In this document: positions 1,807-28,562 of the stretch, one piece after another
Layout of the letters: each line of letters starts with the position of its first letter
Numbering within the stretch: position 1 is the first letter of the stretch
NCBI RefSeq assembly: GCF_002310835.1
Contig: NZ_CP011041.1
Location: 1,470,001-1,502,000, forward strand
Direction of reading: 5' to 3'
Source: Pseudoalteromonas tetraodonis
GTDB taxonomy: Bacteria > Pseudomonadota > Gammaproteobacteria > Enterobacterales > Alteromonadaceae
DNA: 32,000 bases
Notes under the pieces: generated by a model
Databases searched by the model: none
What the model was told of the DNA's origin: nothing
The model's input: the letters and a program-made list of their open reading frames with translations, nothing else
Position numbers and translations under genes: made by a program

Positions 1807-4110
<2,304 letters not shown>

Positions 4111-4482
4111 TTAATGTATGCAATGAGTAGTCTGTTAGGTGTTGGTACTCGTATAACCTAAACAAGGTAAGAATAATCACACCTGACGGACTAGTGTCTT
4201 TTATAACTAAAATTTATGTAAATCTAAACTAGCCATTAGGCTAAAGTAATTACGTTTTACAGGATAAAGAGTGTAACAAGCTTGGCTAAAAAGGGCTAGG
4301 ATTACGCGCCAAACGCCAGCAGTTAAACATCTAATAGTGAAATTATTGGGGTAGATAAAATAAAATCAAGGAGTGGGGTTGAATTAACGAACAATGAAGC
4401 AATTAATATGGAAGTGGTTAGGGGTTTTAGGGAATTAAGCGAGGATCTAAATAGGTCGCTCGCTTTAGTCTCATATTTACAA

Positions 4483-4701
4483 TCACTCTAAAATATCGCC
4501 GTTAGGGGCTATATTAGTAGCGTGTAGACCTTTAGGGCCTTGTTGTAATTCGAAGGTAACATCTTGACCAGCTTTAAGCGTCTTGTATCCGTCCATTACA
4601 ATAGTGGAGTAATGAGCAAAAATGTCGTTCTCGCAACCGTCTTCTACGATGAAACCAAAACCTTTGGCGTTGTTGAACCATTTGACTTTACCACAAGCCA
4701 T
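4483..4701 (-). CDS. cspD: cold-shock-domain protein CspD
   Basis: 72 aa with KVKWFNNAKGFGFI...DIFAHYS motifs. It is divergent from clpS, as in enterobacterial synteny. Confidence 0.9.
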   Translation of the reverse strand: MACGKVKWFNNAKGFGFIVEDGCENDIFAHYSTIVMDGYKTLKAGQDVTFELQQGPKGLHATNIAPNGDILE

Positions 4702-4901
4702 ACTTCTACATCCTTCTATAAGTTGACTAATTTAGTTATCCTAAACTGTATTGTTTGCTAGACTGACTAAGGTTTAATCAATCACCATTTGACTGTAGTT
4801 TATTTAAGCAACCAGTCAAGTGTTTTGGGTTATTTTTTAACATTTTATTTATTTTTTTATTCAAGTTTGCTTGAGTTACAAAGACAAGACTATATTTAAT
4901 T

Positions 4902-5219
4902 ATGAGTGGTATGAAAGATTCTGGTGTTATCGACACCGTTCGCGATAGTGAAAAGCAAAAGTTGCAGCCACCGCGAAAATATAAAGTTGTGTTAAACAAC
5001 GATGATTACACGCCGATGGATTTTGTAATTGAGATCTTGATGACGTTTTTTAATATGGATAGCGATAGAGCAACTGATGTGATGCTGCAAATACATCAGC
5101 AAGGTAAGGGCATTTGTGGTGTTTACAGCGCCGATGTAGCACATACCAAGGCTGAGCAAGTTAACCGCTACTCAAGGGATAACGAGCATCCACTGCTATG
5201 TAGTTGTGAGCAGGAATAA
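4902..5219 (+). CDS. clpS: ATP-dependent Clp protease adaptor ClpS
   Basis: [24 protein letters not shown]...[12 protein letters not shown] closely matches ClpS, and the gene lies directly upstream of clpA. Confidence 0.95.
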
Positions 5220-7549: not shown

Positions 7550-7570
7550 CCTATAAAAGTTAGCAATTTA

Positions 7571-7598
7571 AAAAGCCTGCTTTATGCAGGCTTTTTTA
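7571..7598 (+). terminator. rho-independent terminator of clpA
   Basis: AAAA-AGCCTGC-tttat-GCAGGCT-TTTTT. Confidence 0.8.
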
Positions 7599-7616
7599 TT
7601 TGCCAAAGAAATAGAC

Positions 7617-7650
7617 AACAAAAAACCCAGCAAAGGCTGGGTTTTTTGTT
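7617..7650. terminator. bidirectional hairpin terminator (serves infA on the minus strand)
   Basis: A-run, then CCCAGC-aaag-GCTGGG, then a T-run. Flanking A and T tracts allow function in both directions. Confidence 0.65.
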
Positions 7651-7750
7651 TATTAAATGTAATTACTGGCGAGTATCCATTAATTACATTTAATAAACGC
7701 TTAAAGCTAGTTTTCACTAGCCAAAAACTAAATCTCGTTTACGCACTTAC

Positions 7751-7987
<237 letters not shown>

Positions 7988-8059
7988 TTAATAGTTAAAC
8001 GCTGCAGATTTTGCCCAAAATACGCCAATAAGTAAAGGCGCAGGGGCTATTTTTGTAAA

Positions 8060-8764
8060 TTAAATAGCCAGCCACTGGTCATTGCACTGTTTTTGAGCAG
8101 GTAAAAACTGCGTTTTATAGTTCATTTTGTCGCATTCATCTATTTGATAGCCTAAATAAACAAATTGTTTTTGTTGCAGTTTAGCAAATTTAAGTTGCTG
8201 TAATATCATCACAGTGCCTAAACTAAAGTGCTCATAGTCAGGGTCAAAAAATGTATAAATTGCCGAAATAGCATTGTCCATACAATCAGTTACAGCAACA
8301 GCCACTAAGTTTTCTTGATCCCAAAGCTCTATAAAGGTAATGGTTAACCAGCTACAAAACAAAAAGCTTTGAAATTGTGATTTATCAGGTGGATACATAC
8401 TACCGTCTTGGTGGCGCAAGCTAATGTATTTACTGTAAAGTGGATAGTATTGTTCGCGTTCAACTTGAGAATATTTTACCTCAAAGCGGTTTTTTGCTTT
8501 GTTAAGTTTACGTTTTTGCGATTTTGTCGGCATAAACTCATCAGCTAAAACGCGCACAGAACCACACGCGCTGCAAATAGGGCAGTGCGGACGGTAAATT
8601 TGGTTACCACTGCGACGAAAGCCTAATGCTAACAATGACTCAAATTTAGTACTACTGTAACAACTCGGATCGAGTATGACCAACAGTTGCTCTTGGCGGT
8701 TAGGTAAATAACTGCATTCAAATGGTTGGCTTAGGCCAATACGAGCGGGAAGTTGTTCATTCAT
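8060..8764 (-). CDS. bpt: arginyltransferase-family Asp/Glu leucyltransferase (Bpt/Ate)
   Basis: 234 aa with CSYLP...CPxCxxC and an Ate-like C-terminal domain. It overlaps the aat stop by 8 nt. Confidence 0.85.
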   Translation of the reverse strand: MNEQLPARIGLSQPFECSYLPNRQEQLLVILDPSCYSSTKFESLLALGFRRSGNQIYRPHCPICSACGSVRVLADEFMPTKSQKRKLNKAKNRFEVKYSQVEREQYYPLYSKYISLRHQDGSMYPPDKSQFQSFLFCSWLTITFIELWDQENLVAVAVTDCMDNAISAIYTFFDPDYEHFSLGTVMILQQLKFAKLQQKQFVYLGYQIDECDKMNYKTQFLPAQKQCNDQWLAI

Positions 8765-22228: not shown

Positions 22229-23542
<1,314 letters not shown>

Positions 23543-23588
23543 AGTACTACCTGTAAGCTGTCAGTTTTTAGCTGTAAGCTTTAATAAA

Positions 23589-23624
23589 GAAAGCCGCTGT
23601 TTGTAATGAACAGTGGCTTTTTTG
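23589..23624 (+). terminator. rho-independent terminator of serS
   Basis: AAGCCGCTGTT-tgtaatg-AACAGTGGCTT followed by TTTT. It marks the end of the conserved block. Confidence 0.75.
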
Positions 23625-23783
23625 TGGGTAAAAGGTTAAAGGCGAAAGTAAAAGTCTAAGTTACGCTATTTGTCACTAAAAATAGTAAACCTGCCTCTAT
23701 TGTTTATTTGCACAACACTTTTTGTCTGATATTACTGATCTCCACCATTTTGGTGTGTTGCGCCATTTATAAACCATGAGTGA

Positions 23784-23895
23784 AGCTAACTAATTGTTTA
23801 CAGGTATTTATTTGAGGGCTAAGATAAATGCATTGTAATATATGGACATTTGTCGTTTTATAAACCGACAAATGTCGTAGACAAAATTGTTAGGC
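23784..23895 (+). other. attC-like recombination site (left, hybrid)
   Basis: AGCTAAC (23784-23790) is followed by arm TAATTGTTTAC. The complementary arm GTAGACAAAATT is followed by GTTAGGC (23889-23895). The central part can form two hairpins (GTATTTAT/ATAAATGC and a perfect 11-bp inverted repeat at 23845-23876). Confidence 0.5.
23812..23841 (+). promoter_or_regulatory. possible sigma70 promoter upstream of the two-gene unit
   Basis: TTGAGG-N18-TAATAT. The predicted transcription start falls at the first arm of the 11-bp inverted repeat. This is a weak call by eye only. Confidence 0.3.
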
Positions 23896-23922
23896 AACCC
23901 TGAAGAACAACCTGAGGAATAA

Positions 23923-24423
23923 ATGGAAAGTATATTATCAATACTAGGATCGGTTGCATCTATCGGGGCTGCGATATGGGCTTTTATCGAAGCTGGTAAG
24001 GCCGCTGATTCTGCGTCTCAGGCAGTACAAGTTAGAGACGAGATGATCGATCGTAGACGTTTAGTTGAAGTTTCAAAAGTTCATGCGCAAACAGATAGAA
24101 TTTTATCCGTCGTATCTAAGATAGGGCCGTCATGTAATATCAAAAAGCTAAAAGGCGTCGACTTTCATGGTATTGCAAAGGAAGTGGAAGAGTACGCAAG
24201 GTTTCTTAATGAGCAAAGCTCAAATTTCTCCGAACTCTTTGTAAATAAAGCTAGTTCTCTGTGTGGTGAGCTAAATGAGGATATTGAAGCATTATCAGAT
24301 GCATCTGACCCCGAATCTATTAAAGAAGTTGGGAAGAGGATTTACTACAAGATTAATAGCTTCATGCCCTTTGTCAAAGATCTCGCTGACGAGCGTCAGG
24401 AACGTCCTGTCTCAGCTAAATAA
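23923..24423 (+). CDS. hypothetical membrane-anchored helical protein (166 aa)
   Basis: GAGGA Shine-Dalgarno sequence 4 nt upstream. One N-terminal hydrophobic helix (ILSILGSVASIGAAIWAFI) is followed by a charged, helix-prone region. I recognise no family. Confidence 0.7.
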   Translation: MESILSILGSVASIGAAIWAFIEAGKAADSASQAVQVRDEMIDRRRLVEVSKVHAQTDRILSVVSKIGPSCNIKKLKGVDFHGIAKEVEEYARFLNEQSSNFSELFVNKASSLCGELNEDIEALSDASDPESIKEVGKRIYYKINSFMPFVKDLADERQERPVSAK

Positions 24424-24436
24424 AATGGAAGGTAAT

Positions 24437-24997
24437 ATGAAAATATCAGATGGTGAAAAACTAATACTCCTGATGCTGAGTGAACTGTATGAGAATCTTG
24501 AAATAGACGGTGAAATTGAACCGAAATTTATCCAGTCCGCAATATTCAGTAATAACTTATGGGCAATACCTTGGAAATATTCTGGGATACCTTTTGAGGA
24601 TCAAGATGATCCAGAAATTGTTAAAGAGGTTCTTGATATATTGGATATGTGGAGCTTTATTGAGCATAGTTATAAGCAGTTGTCGGACGGAGAAAAAGTA
24701 CAATTAGAAGAGGCGGCAAAACCGTTTGGAAAAGACCCTAAGTTTCCTGGGTTTGATGGAAATAATGAATCTTCCTATATGGGAATTGCATCTTTTATTG
24801 TTAATGATTTAGAGCGATTCGAAGAATTCAAAGGTAGAAATTTCAATTCTCATTGTCCATCTTTAGATGGGCACGGGAGAATGCTTTCCGTTTTCGAAGA
24901 GATTCGAAAAAATATGAACTTTGGCCCATTATCTGTTGATGACCTATGCCGCATTCTTAAAGAGCGTATTCATCCAAGTAACAGAGAAAATGCCTAA
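24437..24997 (+). CDS. YfbU-family (UPF0304) protein
   Basis: Colinear with E. coli YfbU: KLILLMLSELYENL vs QRLILSNQYKMM; VLDILDMWSFIEHSY vs IIDIMEMYHALHVSW; PGFDGNNESSYMGIASFIV vs LGFDAATEARYLGYVRFMV. GGAAGG lies 4 nt upstream of the ATG at 24437. I take the 24275 start in the ORF track as a spurious extension. Confidence 0.8.
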   Translation: MKISDGEKLILLMLSELYENLEIDGEIEPKFIQSAIFSNNLWAIPWKYSGIPFEDQDDPEIVKEVLDILDMWSFIEHSYKQLSDGEKVQLEEAAKPFGKDPKFPGFDGNNESSYMGIASFIVNDLERFEEFKGRNFNSHCPSLDGHGRMLSVFEEIRKNMNFGPLSVDDLCRILKERIHPSNRENA

Positions 24998-25069
24998 CAA
25001 GGCCAGCCAGAGGGATGCCAAAACCGCCGCTTCGCTCTGGTTTTGTCACCCCTGCTGGTGGCGTTAGCT
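24992..25069 (+). other. attC-like recombination site (right), 78 bp
   Basis: R'' GCCTAAC contains the YfbU stop codon. The imperfect arms GCCAGCCAGAGGGATGCCAAAACC / GGTTTTGTCACCCCTGCTGGTGGC have bulged bases around a 13-nt loop. R' is GTTAGCT (25063-25069). Confidence 0.55.
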
Positions 25070-25150
25070 CTCGAAGGATTGTTGAAGTGTTGAAGTTTTT
25101 TTTACTAGTGTTCGTTCTGGCAGCAAAAAAACCAAAGGGGTCAAATCTTG

Positions 25151-25224
25151 ACTTCTGACTTCAGAACTTAAATTTCTCAAAGCGGCTTGATTTAAGCCGT
25201 TATTTTTCTCTAAAAGCGCAGCGT
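25151..25224 (+). repeat. copy A of a roughly 70-bp repeat (ACTTC..TCAGAACTTAAAT..ATTTAAGCCG..CAGCGT)
   Basis: It aligns with 25783-25852. It contains the stem CTTAAAT/ATTTAAG and the hairpin CGGCTT-gattt-AAGCCG followed by a T-rich tract. Confidence 0.6.
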
Positions 25225-25406
25225 TTCCTATCCTCTTTGTGAATAAATCTCTTCATTAAAAAGCACTCAGATAACAACTTAACAGTTAGTTATGTTCTAA
25301 CTATTTGTTAAATAGTAAATTATCTTTGGATTTTGTTTCTTTATAATTTATTCTACGTACCTCATTGGCGGGTTAATAAGTTGGGGTCATATGCCAAAGG
25401 ATATTT

Positions 25407-25733
25407 ATGAGTACTAAAAGTAGACGATTACGCAAGAAATTGTATTTAGATGAATTTGCTATTCTAGGTTTTGAATTTACTTGTAATTTAAATGCTACTG
25501 AAGCGGAATTTGATTTATTACTAGATGGGCTTTTAGAATTCATCGATAAAAGAAAACTTTGTATTGCTGGTGGAGGTGACTGTAAGTCATTCAGTGGCTT
25601 TATTTGTTCTGTTCATCGTTATGGTTCGGCGACTAATCAAGATAGAGAAGAAGTTGAGCTTTGGTTAAAGTCTAAAGAAAATATTTCAAATATTGTTGTT
25701 AGTCAATTAGTTGATGCAAACTACGGAGTGTAA
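25407..25733 (+). CDS. YggL/DUF469-family protein
   Basis: SRRLRKKLYLDEFAILGFEF... is colinear with E. coli YggL (SRRLRKKMHIDEFQELGFSV...). AAGGA lies 5 nt upstream of the ATG. Confidence 0.8.
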   Translation: MSTKSRRLRKKLYLDEFAILGFEFTCNLNATEAEFDLLLDGLLEFIDKRKLCIAGGGDCKSFSGFICSVHRYGSATNQDREEVELWLKSKENISNIVVSQLVDANYGV

Positions 25734-25782
25734 TGATTTATCTAAAGATTATTTGGTTGAAGACCAAAATGAGCAAATATTA

Positions 25783-25852
25783 ACTTCATATATCAGAACT
25801 TAAATCTTATTGCGACTTATTTAAGCCGCTCTTTGCATATTATACACAGCGT
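25783..25852 (+). repeat. copy B of the roughly 70-bp repeat
   Basis: It shares an exact TCAGAACTTAAAT 13-mer, ATTTAAGCCG and CAGCGT with copy A, at roughly 70% identity overall. Confidence 0.6.
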
Positions 25853-26353: not shown

Positions 26354-27534
<1,181 letters not shown>

Positions 27535-27578
27535 TTTTTCACCCAAATTTGTATGCTTATTAGCATAACATTTCTTTC

Positions 27579-28562
27579 TTAATGGGTGACCAAAATCACT
27601 GTACCACTACATATAGCTTGAGATAAGTCATTTACGAGTATTTTTATTTGTTTATCTTGCTCTGAGCATAGCTTTTTTATGGTACTAAAATCATCAGCAA
27701 GTTGACTTTTTAGAGTGTTTAAAGCTTGTTGGCGAATGTTGGCTTTTTCTAATTGTTGTTCAATAAATTCTATCCGGCTTTCTATAATGGTAAGCAAAAT
27801 AGCGAAGTTATCTCGAAGGCGACCGAGTAAACCTTCATCCTTTGTATTTATTCCTTTTACAAGCATTGAACAAGAAGGCGCGTTAAATAATAAATTAGAG
27901 CTAAATGGAACTATTCGCTTGGCTCTTCTGCCTAGTTCTAGAATTTCTTTTTCCAAGTCAGAAATAGTTTGTTTTGGGAATTGGTGATATTGGTTTGCTA
28001 CCCTAAACTCTACGCAACAGCTGGCGCCTGCATTAGTAAAATAGCGCTGTACGTTAGCAAATAATGTGTCTAAATCCGTTACCTCAAGATTGTCAGTAAA
28101 AAATGTGACTAATTCTCCAAGTTCGCTTGCTTGTTGCATTGATGTAAAAGCGGTAGATGAAGCGACTTCGAACATTTCTTTTAGATTATTTCGCTCTGTA
28201 ATGCGCAGTTCTACACGCTTTAATTTTTCGTTAAGTTCCTTAAAATCTACTGGCTTGGCAATATAATCATCACCGCCATAGCCATAAGCTGTGAGTTTGT
28301 CTTCACTCGATGTTAAGGCTGAAATAAATATAATTTCACAGTCGTCATACGCACCACATTCTTTTATTTCTTTAACCAAGTCGTAACCCGTGAAATCATT
28401 ACTAAGTAAGATATCCATTAGGACTACTTGAGGCTGATGTTCCTCCATTAAAGCTAATATAGGCTCGCTGCCATCAGATGAGGTAATGTCATGTTGCTTG
28501 GATAGGACCATTTCCATGATATTTCTATTTTGAGGGTTATCATCGACGGACAATATTTTCAC
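27579..28562 (-). pseudogene. response regulator (REC domain plus uncharacterised C-terminal domain), truncated by the IS
   Basis: The REC motifs are present: DD at residues 7-8, the phospho-acceptor D in VVLMDILL, ISALT and IAKP. The native sequence ends at 27612, and the last 11 codons ([10 protein letters not shown]) are read from the IS end. Confidence 0.85.

What the first reader, a model, noticed from the sequence alone, without database searches (positions are those of the whole stretch)
23784..25069. Integron-cassette insertion footprint: crosswise-complementary attC core boxes around a 1,174-bp unit
Two imperfect palindromes flank the two-ORF unit. The left one runs AGCTAAC...GTTAGGC (23784-23895) and the right one GCCTAAC...GTTAGCT (24992-25069). 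GCCTAAC and GTTAGGC fit the integron attC boxes R'' = RYYYAAC and R' = GTTRRRY exactly. AGCTAAC and GTTAGCT each deviate at one position, and it is the same complementary position in both. The right R'' is the exact reverse complement of the left R', and the left R'' is the exact reverse complement of the right R'. This is the pattern produced when a circular cassette carrying attC GCCTAAC...G|TTAGGC recombines at G|TT into a resident attC AGCTAAC...G|TTAGCT. Other classic cassette traits are present: the stop codon of the last ORF sits inside R'', the arms carry bulged bases, and only 33 nt separate the cassette start from the first ATG, so the unit is promoterless. No intI gene is in the window, so this would be a CALIN-like or solitary attC context next to serS.
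Basis: partly seen in the sequence, partly recalled or inferred. Interest (0 to 1): 0.72.

Follow-up and report, generated by a model that had tools for sequence, protein, structure and literature searches.

The report
Integron cassette at an integrase-less attI
The 1,174-bp two-gene unit is a genuine integron gene cassette, but it sits at the conserved attI site of a Pseudoalteromonas chromosomal integron that has lost its integrase gene, not inside a second attC; it is a new example of a known kind of element.

Summary
All four heptamers, the 1,174-bp spacing, the stop codon inside R'' and the 33-nt leader are exactly as described. The right site (24992-25069) is a true attC. A covariance model built only from 20 attC sites of other cassettes in other Pseudoalteromonas genomes hits these exact coordinates (39.2 bits, E 1e-6).

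The left site is not an attC. It scores 13.4 bits (E 0.7) on the wrong strand, and its terminal stem has no comparative support. It is the conserved attI/promoter platform of a chromosomal integron downstream of serS. In sibling strains with an identical SerS, the same sequence lies about 118 nt from a full integron integrase gene (TIGR02249, 490 bits) with a LexA box. In all 24 aligned loci, homology ends at the same G|TT, after which each carries a different cassette.

Right R'' being complementary to left R' is the real cassette signature: it holds exactly in 26 of 30 consecutive junctions. The other half, AGCTAAC versus GTTAGCT, is coincidence, because the AGC part varies among loci.

In this window intI and its promoter are replaced by 77 bp. 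The same cassette (an unknown membrane protein plus a YfbU-family protein) also sits in a Shewanella algae array. Verdict: new member of a known kind, modest interest.

The parts
22238..23542 (+). serS. This is the conserved chromosomal gene upstream of the integron platform.
   Evidence: Pfam hits to Seryl_tRNA_N and tRNA-synt_2b. An identical protein is found in loci L001-L010, which all have different content downstream.
23643..23719 (.). A 77-bp filler or scar that replaces intI, its LexA box and its promoter.
   Evidence: Window 23551-23642 matches L008 7320-7410, and window 23720-23800 matches L008 8571-8651. The 1,160 bp in between in L008, which include intI at 7558-8520, are absent here. 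tblastn with IntI finds nothing in the window even at E 10. The same filler is present in L001, L005, L006 and L041/L042.
23720..23889 (+). Conserved integron platform remnant. It holds the intI-proximal spacer, a putative cassette promoter Pc and attI up to the crossover G at 23889.
   Evidence: It is 91% identical to the region next to the intI start codon in L008. The 112-nt core (23784-23895) aligns without any indel in 24 loci from at least 17 Pseudoalteromonas genomes. Homology ends right after GTT(A) in every locus.
23797..23825 (+). Putative Pc promoter inside the platform: TTTACA, 17-nt spacer, TAAGAT.
   Evidence: This is a consensus scan hit. The -35 hexamer is invariant, and a TAnnnT -10 hexamer is kept at the same spacing in nearly all of the 24 loci. 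Function is inferred, not shown.
23845..23876 (.). Perfect 11-bp palindrome (GACATTTGTCG N10 CGACAAATGTC) inside the attI region. Its role is unknown.
   Evidence: It is the only helix in the consensus fold of the 24 loci. None of its 11 pairs shows a compensatory change; single changes break or wobble the pair. This fits a double-stranded DNA protein-binding site better than a selected hairpin.
23877..23895 (+). attI core with the recombination point G23889|T23890. TTAGGC already belongs to the cassette.
   Evidence: The sequence ...GTAGACAAAATTG|TTAGGC is read directly. All 24 loci share ...ACAAARTTG|TT and diverge after it.
23890..25063 (+). Integron gene cassette, 1,174 bp. It consists of a 33-nt leader, ORF1, ORF2 and the attC up to the G of R'.
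   Evidence: R'' GCCTAAC is the exact reverse complement of the junction 7-mer GTTAGGC. The same rule holds exactly in 26 of 30 junction-to-next-attC steps across loci. The same gene pair, with the same start (GTTAGGC|AGTCTC...GAACAACCAGAGGAATA) and an attC at the same place, lies in a Shewanella algae cassette array in L039/L040.
23923..24423 (+). Cassette ORF1, 166 aa. It has an N-terminal hydrophobic helix and matches no known family.
   Evidence: There is no Pfam or NCBIfam hit, and PADLOC gives only noise. There are 107 homologues, up to 94% identical in Vibrio cyclitrophicus and 87% in Shewanella algae. A YfbU gene lies directly downstream in every neighbourhood examined (L038-L040), and both families are named from several of the same species.
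24437..24997 (+). Cassette ORF2, 186 aa, a YfbU-family protein. An in-frame ATG at 24425 is an alternative start.
   Evidence: PF03887 YfbU, E 5e-21. PDB entries 1WPB and 4LR3 (YfbU), E about 2e-5. The stop codon at 24995-24997 lies inside R''.
24992..25069 (+). attC site, 78 nt. R'' is GCCTAAC at 24992-24998 and R' is GTTAGCT at 25063-25069. The crossover is G25063|T25064.
   Evidence: Model R1, built from 20 attC sites of other cassettes without this one, gives 39.2 bits, E 1e-6, a full-length match at exactly these coordinates on the + strand. The bottom strand folds better than the top strand.
25064..25127 (+). Truncated remnant of an older downstream cassette. It starts with TTAGCT and has no attC of its own.
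   Evidence: This stretch is present only in loci with this same cassette (L011-L019 and L043). The conserved right flank shared by all strains starts at about 25125-25133 with 'AACCAAAGGGGTCAAATC'. R1 finds no second attC.
25407..25733 (+). yggL. This is the conserved chromosomal gene that bounds the variable region on the right.
   Evidence: PF04320. It is present downstream of the variable segment in all serS-linked loci where the flank was recovered; L009's array runs beyond the fetched DNA.

Best explanation
Between serS and yggL this Pseudoalteromonas chromosome carries the remains of a sedentary chromosomal integron. The platform's attI site and a probable cassette promoter are intact (23720-23889). 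The integrase gene, its LexA-controlled promoter and about 1.16 kb in all have been replaced by a 77-bp filler (23643-23719).

One complete gene cassette (23890-25063) occupies the first slot. It was inserted by integron-integrase-catalysed recombination between double-stranded attI and the folded bottom strand of the circular cassette's attC, with the crossover at G|TT. That event made the attI junction read G|TTAGGC, which is complementary to the cassette's own R'' GCCTAAC. It also made the attC end read G|TTAGCT, where TTAGCT is the first six bases of the cassette that previously occupied the first slot. About 64 nt of that older cassette survive (25064-25127).

Shown steps: the identity of attC, attI and the cassette boundaries; the integrase at this locus in sibling strains; and the absence of intI here. 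Inferred steps:
- The insertion happened in an intI-carrying ancestor or donor, or by an integrase supplied in trans.
- The two promoterless ORFs are transcribed from the TTTACA-17-TAAGAT promoter in the platform.
- The cargo, a small membrane protein plus a YfbU-family protein, is an abortive-infection type anti-phage module.

Without a cis integrase the cassette is now fixed, unless an integrase acts in trans or the segment is replaced by homologous recombination.
For: attC:
- Model R1 excludes this cassette and was trained on 20 sites whose RNAalifold consensus shows an R box, an unpaired spacer, and an L box with one extrahelical column. Ten of its 14 pairs covary.
- R1 hits 24992-25069 at 39.2 bits, E 1e-6.
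- The bottom strand is more stable than the top strand, -21.5 versus -17.4 kcal/mol.

Cassette boundaries:
- R'' is the reverse complement of the upstream junction 7-mer in the window and exactly so in 26 of 30 steps across loci. About 1 in 64 would be expected per step by chance.
- The same cassette, with the same first bases and an attC overlapping the YfbU stop codon, sits in a Shewanella algae array. That array has three attC hits of 30.7-45.4 bits.

attI:
- The left element lies about 118 nt from the start codon of a 320-aa integron integrase in L008 (TIGR02249, 489.7 bits against a cut-off of 265), together with a CTGT-N8-ACAG LexA box.
- Full-length intI sits at the same distance in L027, L035 and L037. 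Five further loci keep only the N-terminal 100-150 codons, although in L036 the fetched DNA ends there.
- In all 24 aligned loci, homology ends at the same G|TT, followed by different cassettes.

intI loss.

Hypervariable slot: ten loci with an identical SerS protein carry eight different contents between serS and yggL.

Cargo:
- The second ORF hits PF03887 YfbU.
- A single-gene YfbU-domain system, Kamadhenu, gives abortive-infection phage resistance in Lactococcus (PMC11381338).
- First-slot cassettes of sibling strains hit fused PARIS AriAB (668 bits), PDC-S31/DUF2971 and PDC-S15/FRG.
Against: - No integrase is in the window, and the rest of this genome could not be searched. Who catalysed the insertion, and when, is therefore unknown.
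- A precise empty site (attI joined directly to TTAGCTCTCGAAGG) was not found in the fetched loci or in the metagenome collection.
- R' GTTAGCT departs from GTTRRRY at one position.
- The MFE places single-base bulges on both arms, not only on the R''-L'' arm as in textbook attC sites. The extrahelical-base pattern is predicted only.
- The promoter is a 9-of-12 consensus match, and the region has no more such matches than shuffles do.
- PADLOC 2.0 has no hit for either cassette protein, so the defence role rests on analogy and neighbourhood.
- The official IntegronFinder attC model was not available. R1 is a genus-specific stand-in.
Confidence: 0.9

Rival explanations
1. A solitary resident attC (AGCTAAC...G|TTAGCT, about 112 nt) sat next to serS. 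A circular cassette recombined into it by attC x attC, which produced two hybrid attC sites with crosswise-complementary boxes.
For: Both complementarities are exact in this window. TAAC...GTTA at the ends of the left site are invariant in 24 loci, and the W sequence folds with a 5-bp terminal stem.
Against: - The attC model scores the left site at 13.4 bits, E 0.7, on the minus strand. That is the same level as random hits elsewhere in the window.
- The consensus fold of 24 orthologues contains no terminal stem and no covariation.
- Changes in the right arm (GTAGACAAAATT to GGATACAAAGTT) are not compensated in the left arm.
- The AGC of the left box varies among loci (AGT in most intI-linked ones), and array-terminal R' boxes in other loci with AGCTAAC are not GTTAGCT.
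- The element is the intI-proximal region in integrase-carrying strains.
Confidence: 0.04
2. The cassette did not enter this chromosome by site-specific recombination at all. A pre-assembled attI-cassette segment, made in an intI-carrying donor, was imported by natural transformation and homologous recombination, using the serS/attI side and the yggL side as homology arms. Cassette diversity among integrase-less strains would then reflect allelic replacement rather than integrase activity.
For: - The same 77-bp intI-deletion filler is shared by W, L001, L005, L006 and L041/L042, although their first cassettes differ.
- W is a mosaic. Upstream of about 23755 it matches L006-type sequence, and from there through attI it matches L008-type sequence.
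- Arrays in all strains end at one conserved boundary, 'AACCAAAGGGGTC', which often cuts the last attC. This is not what integrase activity alone would produce.
- Transformation-driven cassette exchange in chromosomal integrons has been described (PMC12614218, abstract).
Against: This does not change what the parts are. The G|TT junctions and the R''/R' rule still require integrase action at some earlier point. A trans-acting integrase in the same genome cannot be excluded, and some Pseudoalteromonas genomes carry two platform copies.
Confidence: 0.4
3. The two palindromes are ordinary intergenic repeats or terminators (REP-like) with no link to integrons, and the box matches are chance.
For: Rfam has no family hit anywhere in the window. 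Short AAC/GTT boxes are common in an AT-rich genome.
Against: An integrase sits at the locus in siblings, the attC model hit is significant, the 26-of-30 complementarity rule holds, and the same cassette lies in a Shewanella array. The left element occurs once or twice per genome in the species-representative genomes scanned (18 hits in 15 genomes) and is followed by cassettes in 24 of the 25 loci compared. Rfam does not appear to contain an attC family, so one search is uninformative.
Confidence: 0.01

Closest known systems
Sedentary chromosomal integrons of Vibrionales, Alteromonadales and Xanthomonas. The closest parallel is the Xanthomonas ilvD-linked integron, whose intI is often inactivated (10.1101/2025.06.18.660453, citing Gillings et al. 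2005).
   Same: - The platform sits at a fixed chromosomal locus, here downstream of serS.
- The integrase is TIGR02249-type and has a LexA box.
- The attC sites form a genus-typical family of about 100 nt, and cassette content is strain-specific.
- intI is frequently truncated or lost while attI and cassettes persist. Of 18 species-level loci, only 3 have a full-length intI, 5 have N-terminal fragments and 9 have none within the fetched DNA.
   Different: - Arrays at this locus are very short, with one to about five cassettes in the DNA fetched, rather than tens to hundreds.
- In this window the integrase is completely gone rather than pseudogenised.
- Cassettes differ between strains that share the same intI-deletion scar. 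In Xanthomonas, strains with the same intI lesion usually share identical arrays.
CALIN (cluster of attC sites lacking an integron integrase) as defined by IntegronFinder (PMC4889954; version 2: 10.1101/2022.02.28.482270).
   Same: An attC-bounded cassette lies with no intI nearby.
   Different: There is only one significant attC, so the default threshold of two attC sites in version 2 would not report it. Unlike a generic CALIN, it retains a recognisable attI and promoter platform. It is better described as an integron that lost intI than as a stray attC cluster.
Vibrio cholerae repeats (VCR) and class 1 attC sites (59-base elements).
   Same: The architecture is the same: R'' RYYYAAC, an AAR spacer opposite GGC, an L box with an extrahelical base, a variable central stem, and L'-GGC-GTTRRRY. 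The stop codon lies inside R''. The bottom strand is more stable.
   Different: The sequence of the central part is unrelated. R' is GTTAGCT, with C at a purine position. The resemblance to the VCR sequence is recalled from memory and was not tested against VCR sequences here.
attI sites of known integrons (attI1, attIA).
   Same: - The site lies between intI and the first cassette.
- The crossover is at G|TT of a GTTRRRY-like box, preceded by ACAAA.
- It is conserved alongside its integrase while the cassettes vary.
   Different: - This one is embedded in a 112-nt block that is invariant in length.
- That block holds a perfect 11-bp palindrome 13 nt from the crossover and an inverted TAAC box 100 nt upstream. 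Neither is a described feature of attI1 as far as I recall.
- Integrase binding sites were not mapped.
Kamadhenu, a single-gene YfbU-domain abortive-infection system from lactococcal plasmids (PMC11381338).
   Same: It has a YfbU (PF03887) fold protein of about 180 aa on a mobile element. Other first-slot cassettes at this locus are recognised or candidate defence genes, including a DUF2971 protein, the domain of the Aristaios system described in the same paper.
   Different: Here YfbU is always paired with an upstream 166-aa membrane-anchored protein of unknown family. No sequence comparison with Kamadhenu was possible, and no phenotype is known.

Membership tests
attC site (right site, 24992-25069) | Terminal inverse core and core boxes: R'' RYYYAAC and R' GTTRRRY. 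| tested here: met
   GCCTAAC fits exactly. GTTAGCT fits 6 of 7 positions. In an array the last six bases of R' come from the next cassette.
attC site (right site, 24992-25069) | A match to an attC covariance model, covering the R box, unpaired spacer, L box with extrahelical base and variable centre. | tested here: met
   R1 was built from 20 independent Pseudoalteromonas attC sites and gives 39.2 bits, E 1e-6, full length, + strand. The IntegronFinder model itself was not available.
attC site (right site, 24992-25069) | The recombinogenic bottom strand folds better than the top strand and carries bulged bases. | tested here: met
   Bottom strand -21.5 kcal/mol (z -3.97); top strand -17.4 kcal/mol (z -2.44). 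There is a 3-nt asymmetric spacer and single-base bulges. The bulge positions are predictions only.
attC site (right site, 24992-25069) | Recombined by an integron integrase. | not testable with these tools
   This needs an in vivo or in vitro recombination assay.
Integron gene cassette (23890-25063) | Circular-permutation signature: the cassette's R'' is complementary to the 7-mer at its upstream junction. | tested here: met
   GCCTAAC against GTTAGGC in the window. The rule holds exactly in 26 of 30 steps across loci.
Integron gene cassette (23890-25063) | Promoterless ORFs in one orientation with a short leader, ending at an attC. | tested here: met
   The leader is 33 nt with a GAGGAA ribosome-binding site. 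Both ORFs are on the + strand, and the stop codon lies in R''. The one internal promoter-like hit (24072-24101) lies within ORF1 and is at chance level.
Integron gene cassette (23890-25063) | The same unit is found as a discrete cassette in other integrons. | tested here: met
   In Shewanella algae L039/L040 the same gene pair (87% aa identity) has the same start after GTTAGGC and is followed by an attC, inside an array with two further attC hits.
attC site (left site, 23784-23895) | A match to the attC model in cassette orientation. | tested here: not met
   13.4 bits, E 0.7, minus strand only. This is the same range as background hits.
attC site (left site, 23784-23895) | An end-to-end imperfect palindrome maintained in orthologues. 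| tested here: not met
   The consensus fold of 24 loci keeps only the internal 11-bp palindrome. No pair shows a compensatory change, and right-arm changes are uncompensated.
attI site (left site) | Lies directly upstream of a divergently transcribed intI. | tested here: met
   This holds in L008, L027, L035 and L037 (full-length intI) and in 5 loci with intI fragments. It does not hold in the window itself, where intI is deleted.
attI site (left site) | Cassette arrays begin at its G|TT, and the site is conserved while the cassettes vary. | tested here: met
   24 loci share ...ACAAARTTG|TT and diverge immediately after it.
attI site (left site) | Bound and recombined by its cognate IntI. | not testable with these tools
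   This needs a recombination assay with the L008-type IntI.
Complete integron | intI present next to attI and the cassettes. | tested here: not met
   There is no tblastn hit to IntI anywhere in the 32-kb window at E 10 or below. The 1,160 bp holding intI in L008 are replaced by 77 bp.
CALIN (IntegronFinder 2 default) | At least two attC sites without an intI nearby. | tested here: not met
   There is only one significant attC in the window. The next best hit scores 16.9 bits, E 0.11, in the conserved yggL leader. The definition is from 10.1101/2022.02.28.482270.
REP-type genome-wide repeat | Many dispersed copies per genome, unlinked to an integrase or cassettes. | tested here: not met
   The left-element pattern gives 18 hits in 15 genomes among the species representatives of GTDB (185,579 species), one or two per genome, all in Pseudoalteromonas. 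In the 24 of 25 loci with the attI core (all but L026), cassette-type sequence follows. There is a single copy in the window.
YfbU family (cargo ORF2) | A match to PF03887 above the gathering score. | tested here: met
   75.8 bits against a cut-off of 25, covering profile positions 1-164 of 166. The NCBIfam equivalog score is below its cut-off, 56.5 against 90. It is therefore a divergent member, not an orthologue of E. coli YfbU.
Anti-phage system (cargo) | A match to a known defence model, or a demonstrated phenotype. | tested here: inconclusive
   PADLOC 2.0 gives no hit for ORF2 and only noise for ORF1. A YfbU-domain system, Kamadhenu, was published after that database release (PMC11381338).

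The most novel reading that the evidence does not exclude
At this serS-yggL slot, cassettes keep being exchanged even though the cis integrase is gone. Five distinct first-slot contents sit behind one and the same intI-deletion scar: the YfbU pair, fused PARIS, a weakly SIR2-like gene, a 204-aa ORF and a small-ORF cassette. If this turnover is catalysed by an integrase acting in trans on an orphan attI, then integrase-less single-slot attI platforms would be active receivers of mostly defence cassettes, not dead relics. Current tools ignore this class of locus, because a single attC falls below the CALIN threshold.
Probability: 0.25. Interest if true: 0.55.

Novelty: new member of a known kind. 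Interest (0 to 1): 0.35.

Why it matters
It gives a clean, comparatively verified example of a single integron cassette retained at an orphan attI after complete loss of the integrase. Default IntegronFinder settings skip this configuration.

It also documents a Pseudoalteromonas chromosomal integron at a fixed serS-yggL locus, with these properties:
- The integrase is lost or truncated in most lineages.
- In the strains scanned, the first slot often carries recognised or candidate anti-phage genes: PARIS, PDC-S31/DUF2971 and PDC-S15/FRG.
- That context nominates the widely transferred pair of ORF1 and a YfbU-family protein as a candidate two-gene defence module.
- The attI block carries a strictly conserved palindrome whose role could be tested.

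None of this changes how integrons are understood. It extends known biology to another genus, and it raises a testable question about cassette turnover without a cis integrase.

Tried and rejected
- **Rfam scan.** The scan of the whole window at gathering thresholds gave 0 hits. This is uninformative, because no attC family appears to be in Rfam.
- **First attC scans.** My first rule-based scans were too strict and missed most sites. I replaced them with a curated alignment and a covariance model.
- **Precise empty site.** The predicted junction ACAAARTTGTTAGCTCTCGAAGG has 0 matches in metagenome contigs. The remnant start GTTAGCTCTCGAAGGATTGTTGAAG also has 0 matches. The remnant occurs only in loci that also carry this cassette. 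A look-up anchored on YggL brought one more allele (L041/L042/L046) but no empty site.
- **intI remnant.** tblastn found none in the window.
- **Filler origin.** I asked whether the 77-bp filler derives from intI-flanking DNA of L008, L035, L037 or L027. No similarity was found.
- **Defence annotation.** PADLOC and PDB sequence searches gave no usable annotation for ORF1.
- **REP-like or terminator explanation.** Considered and rejected (see the rival explanations).
- **Left-site terminal inverted repeat.** I considered that the repeat TAACTAATTGT / ACAAAATTGTTA marks an attC-like fold. There is no comparative support.
- **Not attempted.** I did not predict the structure of ORF1. I did not search the source genome for another intI, because only the window and fetched loci are accessible.
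Full report
**Observation.**
- AGCTAAC lies at 23784-23790, GTTAGGC at 23889-23895, GCCTAAC at 24992-24998 and GTTAGCT at 25063-25069.
- From T23890 to G25063 is 1,174 bp.
- The unit holds two same-strand ORFs: 23923-24423 (166 aa) and 24437-24997 (186 aa).
- The TAA stop of the second ORF lies inside GCCTAAC. The first ATG is 33 nt from the proposed cassette start and is preceded by GAGGAA.
- As single-stranded DNA, the bottom strand of the right site folds at -21.5 kcal/mol (z -3.97). The top strand folds at -17.4 kcal/mol. The fold has a 5-bp terminal R-box helix, a 3-nt asymmetric spacer and single-base bulges.
- The left site also scores well (z about -4.5), but mostly because of an internal perfect 11-bp palindrome at 23845-23876.

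**Context.** The flanking genes are rarA, crcB and serS on the left and yggL on the right. I looked up contigs that encode the identical SerS protein.
- Ten places have the same flanks but eight different contents between serS and yggL.
- In two of them (L008 and L009) a 320-322-aa tyrosine recombinase lies directly after serS on the opposite strand.
- Both are integron integrases by NCBIfam TIGR02249: 489.7 and 458.5 bits against a cut-off of 265.
- The lineage therefore has an integron at exactly this locus. The organisms are Pseudoalteromonas (record titles).

**The left site is attI, not attC.**
- In L008 the intI start codon is followed by a LexA-type box (CTGTATATATAGACAG). About 118 nt from the start codon comes a sequence nearly identical to window 23720-23893.
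- A pattern drawn from this element found 18 loci in 15 Pseudoalteromonas genomes among the GTDB species representatives.
- Of those 18 loci, three have full-length intI at the same distance. Five have only the N-terminal 100-150 codons, although in L036 the fetched DNA ends there. Nine have none in the DNA fetched, and one is cut by the contig end.
- I aligned these with the SerS-anchored loci. Twenty-four copies of the 112-nt block corresponding to 23784-23895 align without a single indel.
- All share ...ACAAARTTGTT. Every locus then continues differently: GTTAGGC, GTTAGGT, GTTAAGT, GTTAGAG, GTTATAC, GTTAGCC, GTTATGT and so on.
- This is the behaviour of an attI site with its crossover at G|TT.
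- The RNAalifold consensus of the 24 copies keeps only the internal palindrome. None of its 11 pairs shows a compensatory change, and the terminal TAAC...GTTA stem is not part of the consensus.

**The right site is attC.**
- Starting from each attI junction, I collected attC sites from other cassettes in other genomes and aligned 20 of them. The window's own cassette and its copies were left out.
- RNAalifold recovered the canonical attC layout on its own. It found TAAC/GTTA pairing, an unpaired AAR/GGC spacer, a 5-bp L helix, one extrahelical column, three more pairs and a GG/CC clamp. Ten of the 14 pairs show double-sided compensatory changes.
- The covariance model R1 built from this alignment was run over the whole window with filters off.
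- The left site reaches only 13.4 bits (E 0.7) and only on the minus strand. That is indistinguishable from background hits inside serS and elsewhere.

**Cassette signature.** A cassette excised as a circle and reinserted at G|TT carries, at its upstream junction, the complement of its own R''.
- I used the R1 hits in all loci and walked from each attI junction or attC to the next attC.
- The R'' 7-mer was the exact reverse complement of the preceding junction 7-mer in 26 of 30 steps, including the window.
- Only three or four positions are free, so chance would give about 1 in 64 per step.
- Two of the four exceptions span about 2.8 kb and probably hide a missed site. One has a mutated TAAT, and one differs at a single base.
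- The second (left box against right R') is not. GTTAGCT is a frequent R' in this pool, found in the window, L001 and L010, and also at the L034 attI junction. Loci whose left box is AGCTAAC end their arrays with GTTATAA, GTTAAAT or GTTATAG.
- The TTAGCT after the window's attC is the start of an older cassette. About 64 nt of it remain (25064-25127) before the flank shared by all strains begins at 'AACCAAAGGGGTCAAATC'.

**Loss of the integrase.**
- Window 23551-23642 matches L008 7320-7410, and window 23720-23800 matches L008 8571-8651.
- The 1,160 bp between these in L008 hold intI, the LexA box and the intI promoter. In the window they are replaced by 77 unrelated bp at 23643-23719.
- tblastn with IntI finds nothing in the 32-kb window.
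- The same filler is present in L001, L005, L006 and L041/L042, whose first cassettes all differ.
- The window is also a mosaic. It is L006-like up to about 23755 and L008-like from there through attI.
- Either cassettes have turned over since intI was lost, which needs an integrase in trans, or homologous recombination shuffles the scar, the attI type and the cassette independently. The data cannot separate these.

**The cassette elsewhere.**
- ORF1 has 107 homologues and ORF2 more than 770. They occur in Vibrio, Shewanella, Psychrobacter, Aeromonas, Agarilytica and others, and several of the same species are named for both.
- In Shewanella algae (L039/L040) the pair is 87% identical. It starts right after GTTAGGC with a conserved leader and ends in an attC that overlaps the YfbU stop codon (30.7 bits). 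Two more attC sites follow downstream (45.4 and 39.1 bits).
- In Vibrio cyclitrophicus (94% identity, L038) the pair sits outside any array. It has GTTAGGT on both sides and a degenerate attC (GCCTAAT...; 13.8 bits). This is a possible secondary-site insertion.

**Cargo.**
- ORF2 is a divergent YfbU-family protein: PF03887 at 75.8 bits, and PDB entries 1WPB and 4LR3 at E about 2e-5.
- ORF1 has an N-terminal hydrophobic helix and belongs to no known family.
- A single-gene YfbU-domain system, Kamadhenu, confers abortive-infection phage resistance in Lactococcus. The same paper describes a DUF2971 system, Aristaios (PMC11381338).
- First-slot cassettes of sibling strains include a DUF2971/PDC-S31 protein (L008), a fused PARIS AriAB (668 bits, L001) and PDC-S15/FRG (L010).
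- Integron cassettes that encode phage defence have been reported (10.1101/2024.07.02.601719; PMC12614218).
- I therefore infer, without direct evidence, that the ORF1-YfbU pair is an anti-phage module.

**Expression.** A TTTACA-17-TAAGAT match lies inside the platform at 23797-23825. The -35 hexamer is invariant, and a TAnnnT -10 hexamer is kept at the same spacing in nearly all of the 24 loci. It is the natural candidate for the cassette promoter, but the region has no more promoter-like matches than shuffles do. This step is inferred.

**Comparison with the known.**
- The right site meets every attC criterion I could test, and the unit meets every cassette criterion.
- The left site fails the attC tests and meets the positional and comparative criteria for attI.
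- The locus is not a complete integron, because it has no intI. It would also not be reported as a CALIN under the IntegronFinder 2 default of two attC sites.
- The closest parallel is the Xanthomonas ilvD-linked integron with its widespread intI inactivation (10.1101/2025.06.18.660453).
- I found no paper in the searchable library that describes this Pseudoalteromonas serS-linked integron. Large IntegronFinder surveys have probably listed the intI-carrying versions.

**Verdict.** The finding is a new member of a known kind and of modest interest. The open question is how cassettes differ among strains that share one intI deletion.

Noticed in passing
window 26364-27590: An IS3-family element (orfA 27223-27546, orfB 26354-27184, minus strand) splits the response-regulator gene. 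Residues 1-324 map to 28562-27591 and residues 311-370 to 26363-26184. Sibling strains have an intact 370-aa gene.
   Followed up: partly
window 25128-25205 and 25760-25834: A repeat of about 78 nt (74% identity) flanks yggL on both sides. The first copy begins the boundary 'AACCAAAGGGGTCAAATC' where the cassette arrays of all strains end. That boundary often cuts the last attC mid-site (L041, L010, L007), and extra copies occur inside some arrays (L001, L010).
   Followed up: partly
window 25277-25313: A 37-nt palindrome in the yggL leader (ACTTAACAGTTAGTTA...TAACTATTTGTTAAAT) is the second-best hit of the attC model (16.9 bits, E 0.11). It is conserved in all strains, including L004, which has no attI element. 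It is probably a yggL regulatory element rather than an attC relic.
   Followed up: partly
window 23845-23876: A perfect 11-bp palindrome lies 13 nt upstream of the attI crossover. It is essentially invariant in 24 loci and shows no compensatory changes. It would lie in the leader of cassette transcripts and could be an operator or an accessory integrase or host-factor site.
   Followed up: partly
L001 7689-9284; L008 8757-9635; L010 8715-9446; L005 7701-8639; L009 10496-11743: Cassettes at this locus in sibling strains, mostly in the first slot, are recognised or candidate defence genes. They are fused PARIS AriAB (668 bits), PDC-S31/DUF2971, PDC-S15/FRG, a weak SIR2-like protein and a type II restriction-enzyme-like protein.
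   Followed up: partly
L038 (Vibrio cyclitrophicus CP065206.1) 4001-5190: The same ORF1-YfbU cassette (94% aa identity) lies outside any array, near ssb and dndB. It is bounded by GTTAGGT on both sides and has a decayed attC (R'' GCCTAAT). It looks like an integrase-mediated insertion at a non-att secondary site.
   Followed up: no
L009 7508-8560: A second integrase type, about 61% identical to the L008 type, occupies the same position after serS in a strain with the identical SerS. It has a different attI, and IS1595 and IS110 elements sit in its array. This suggests replacement of the whole platform at one locus.
   Followed up: no
L030 (P. neustonica), genes downstream of attI: The first gene after attI, in cassette orientation, encodes a tyrosine recombinase about 28% identical to IntI.
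   Followed up: no
L022 and L035; L024 and L026; L032 and L034: Three genomes carry two copies of the attI platform element. In strain P1-25 one copy is serS-linked with intI and the other lies elsewhere with no intI within 2.5 kb. L026 is a degenerate copy that lacks the attI core.
   Followed up: no
window 23543-23650: Short tandem motifs lie just after serS (AGCTGTMAGCT units) and after its terminator hairpin (AAAGG-type units). Their copy number varies between strains with the identical SerS.
   Followed up: no
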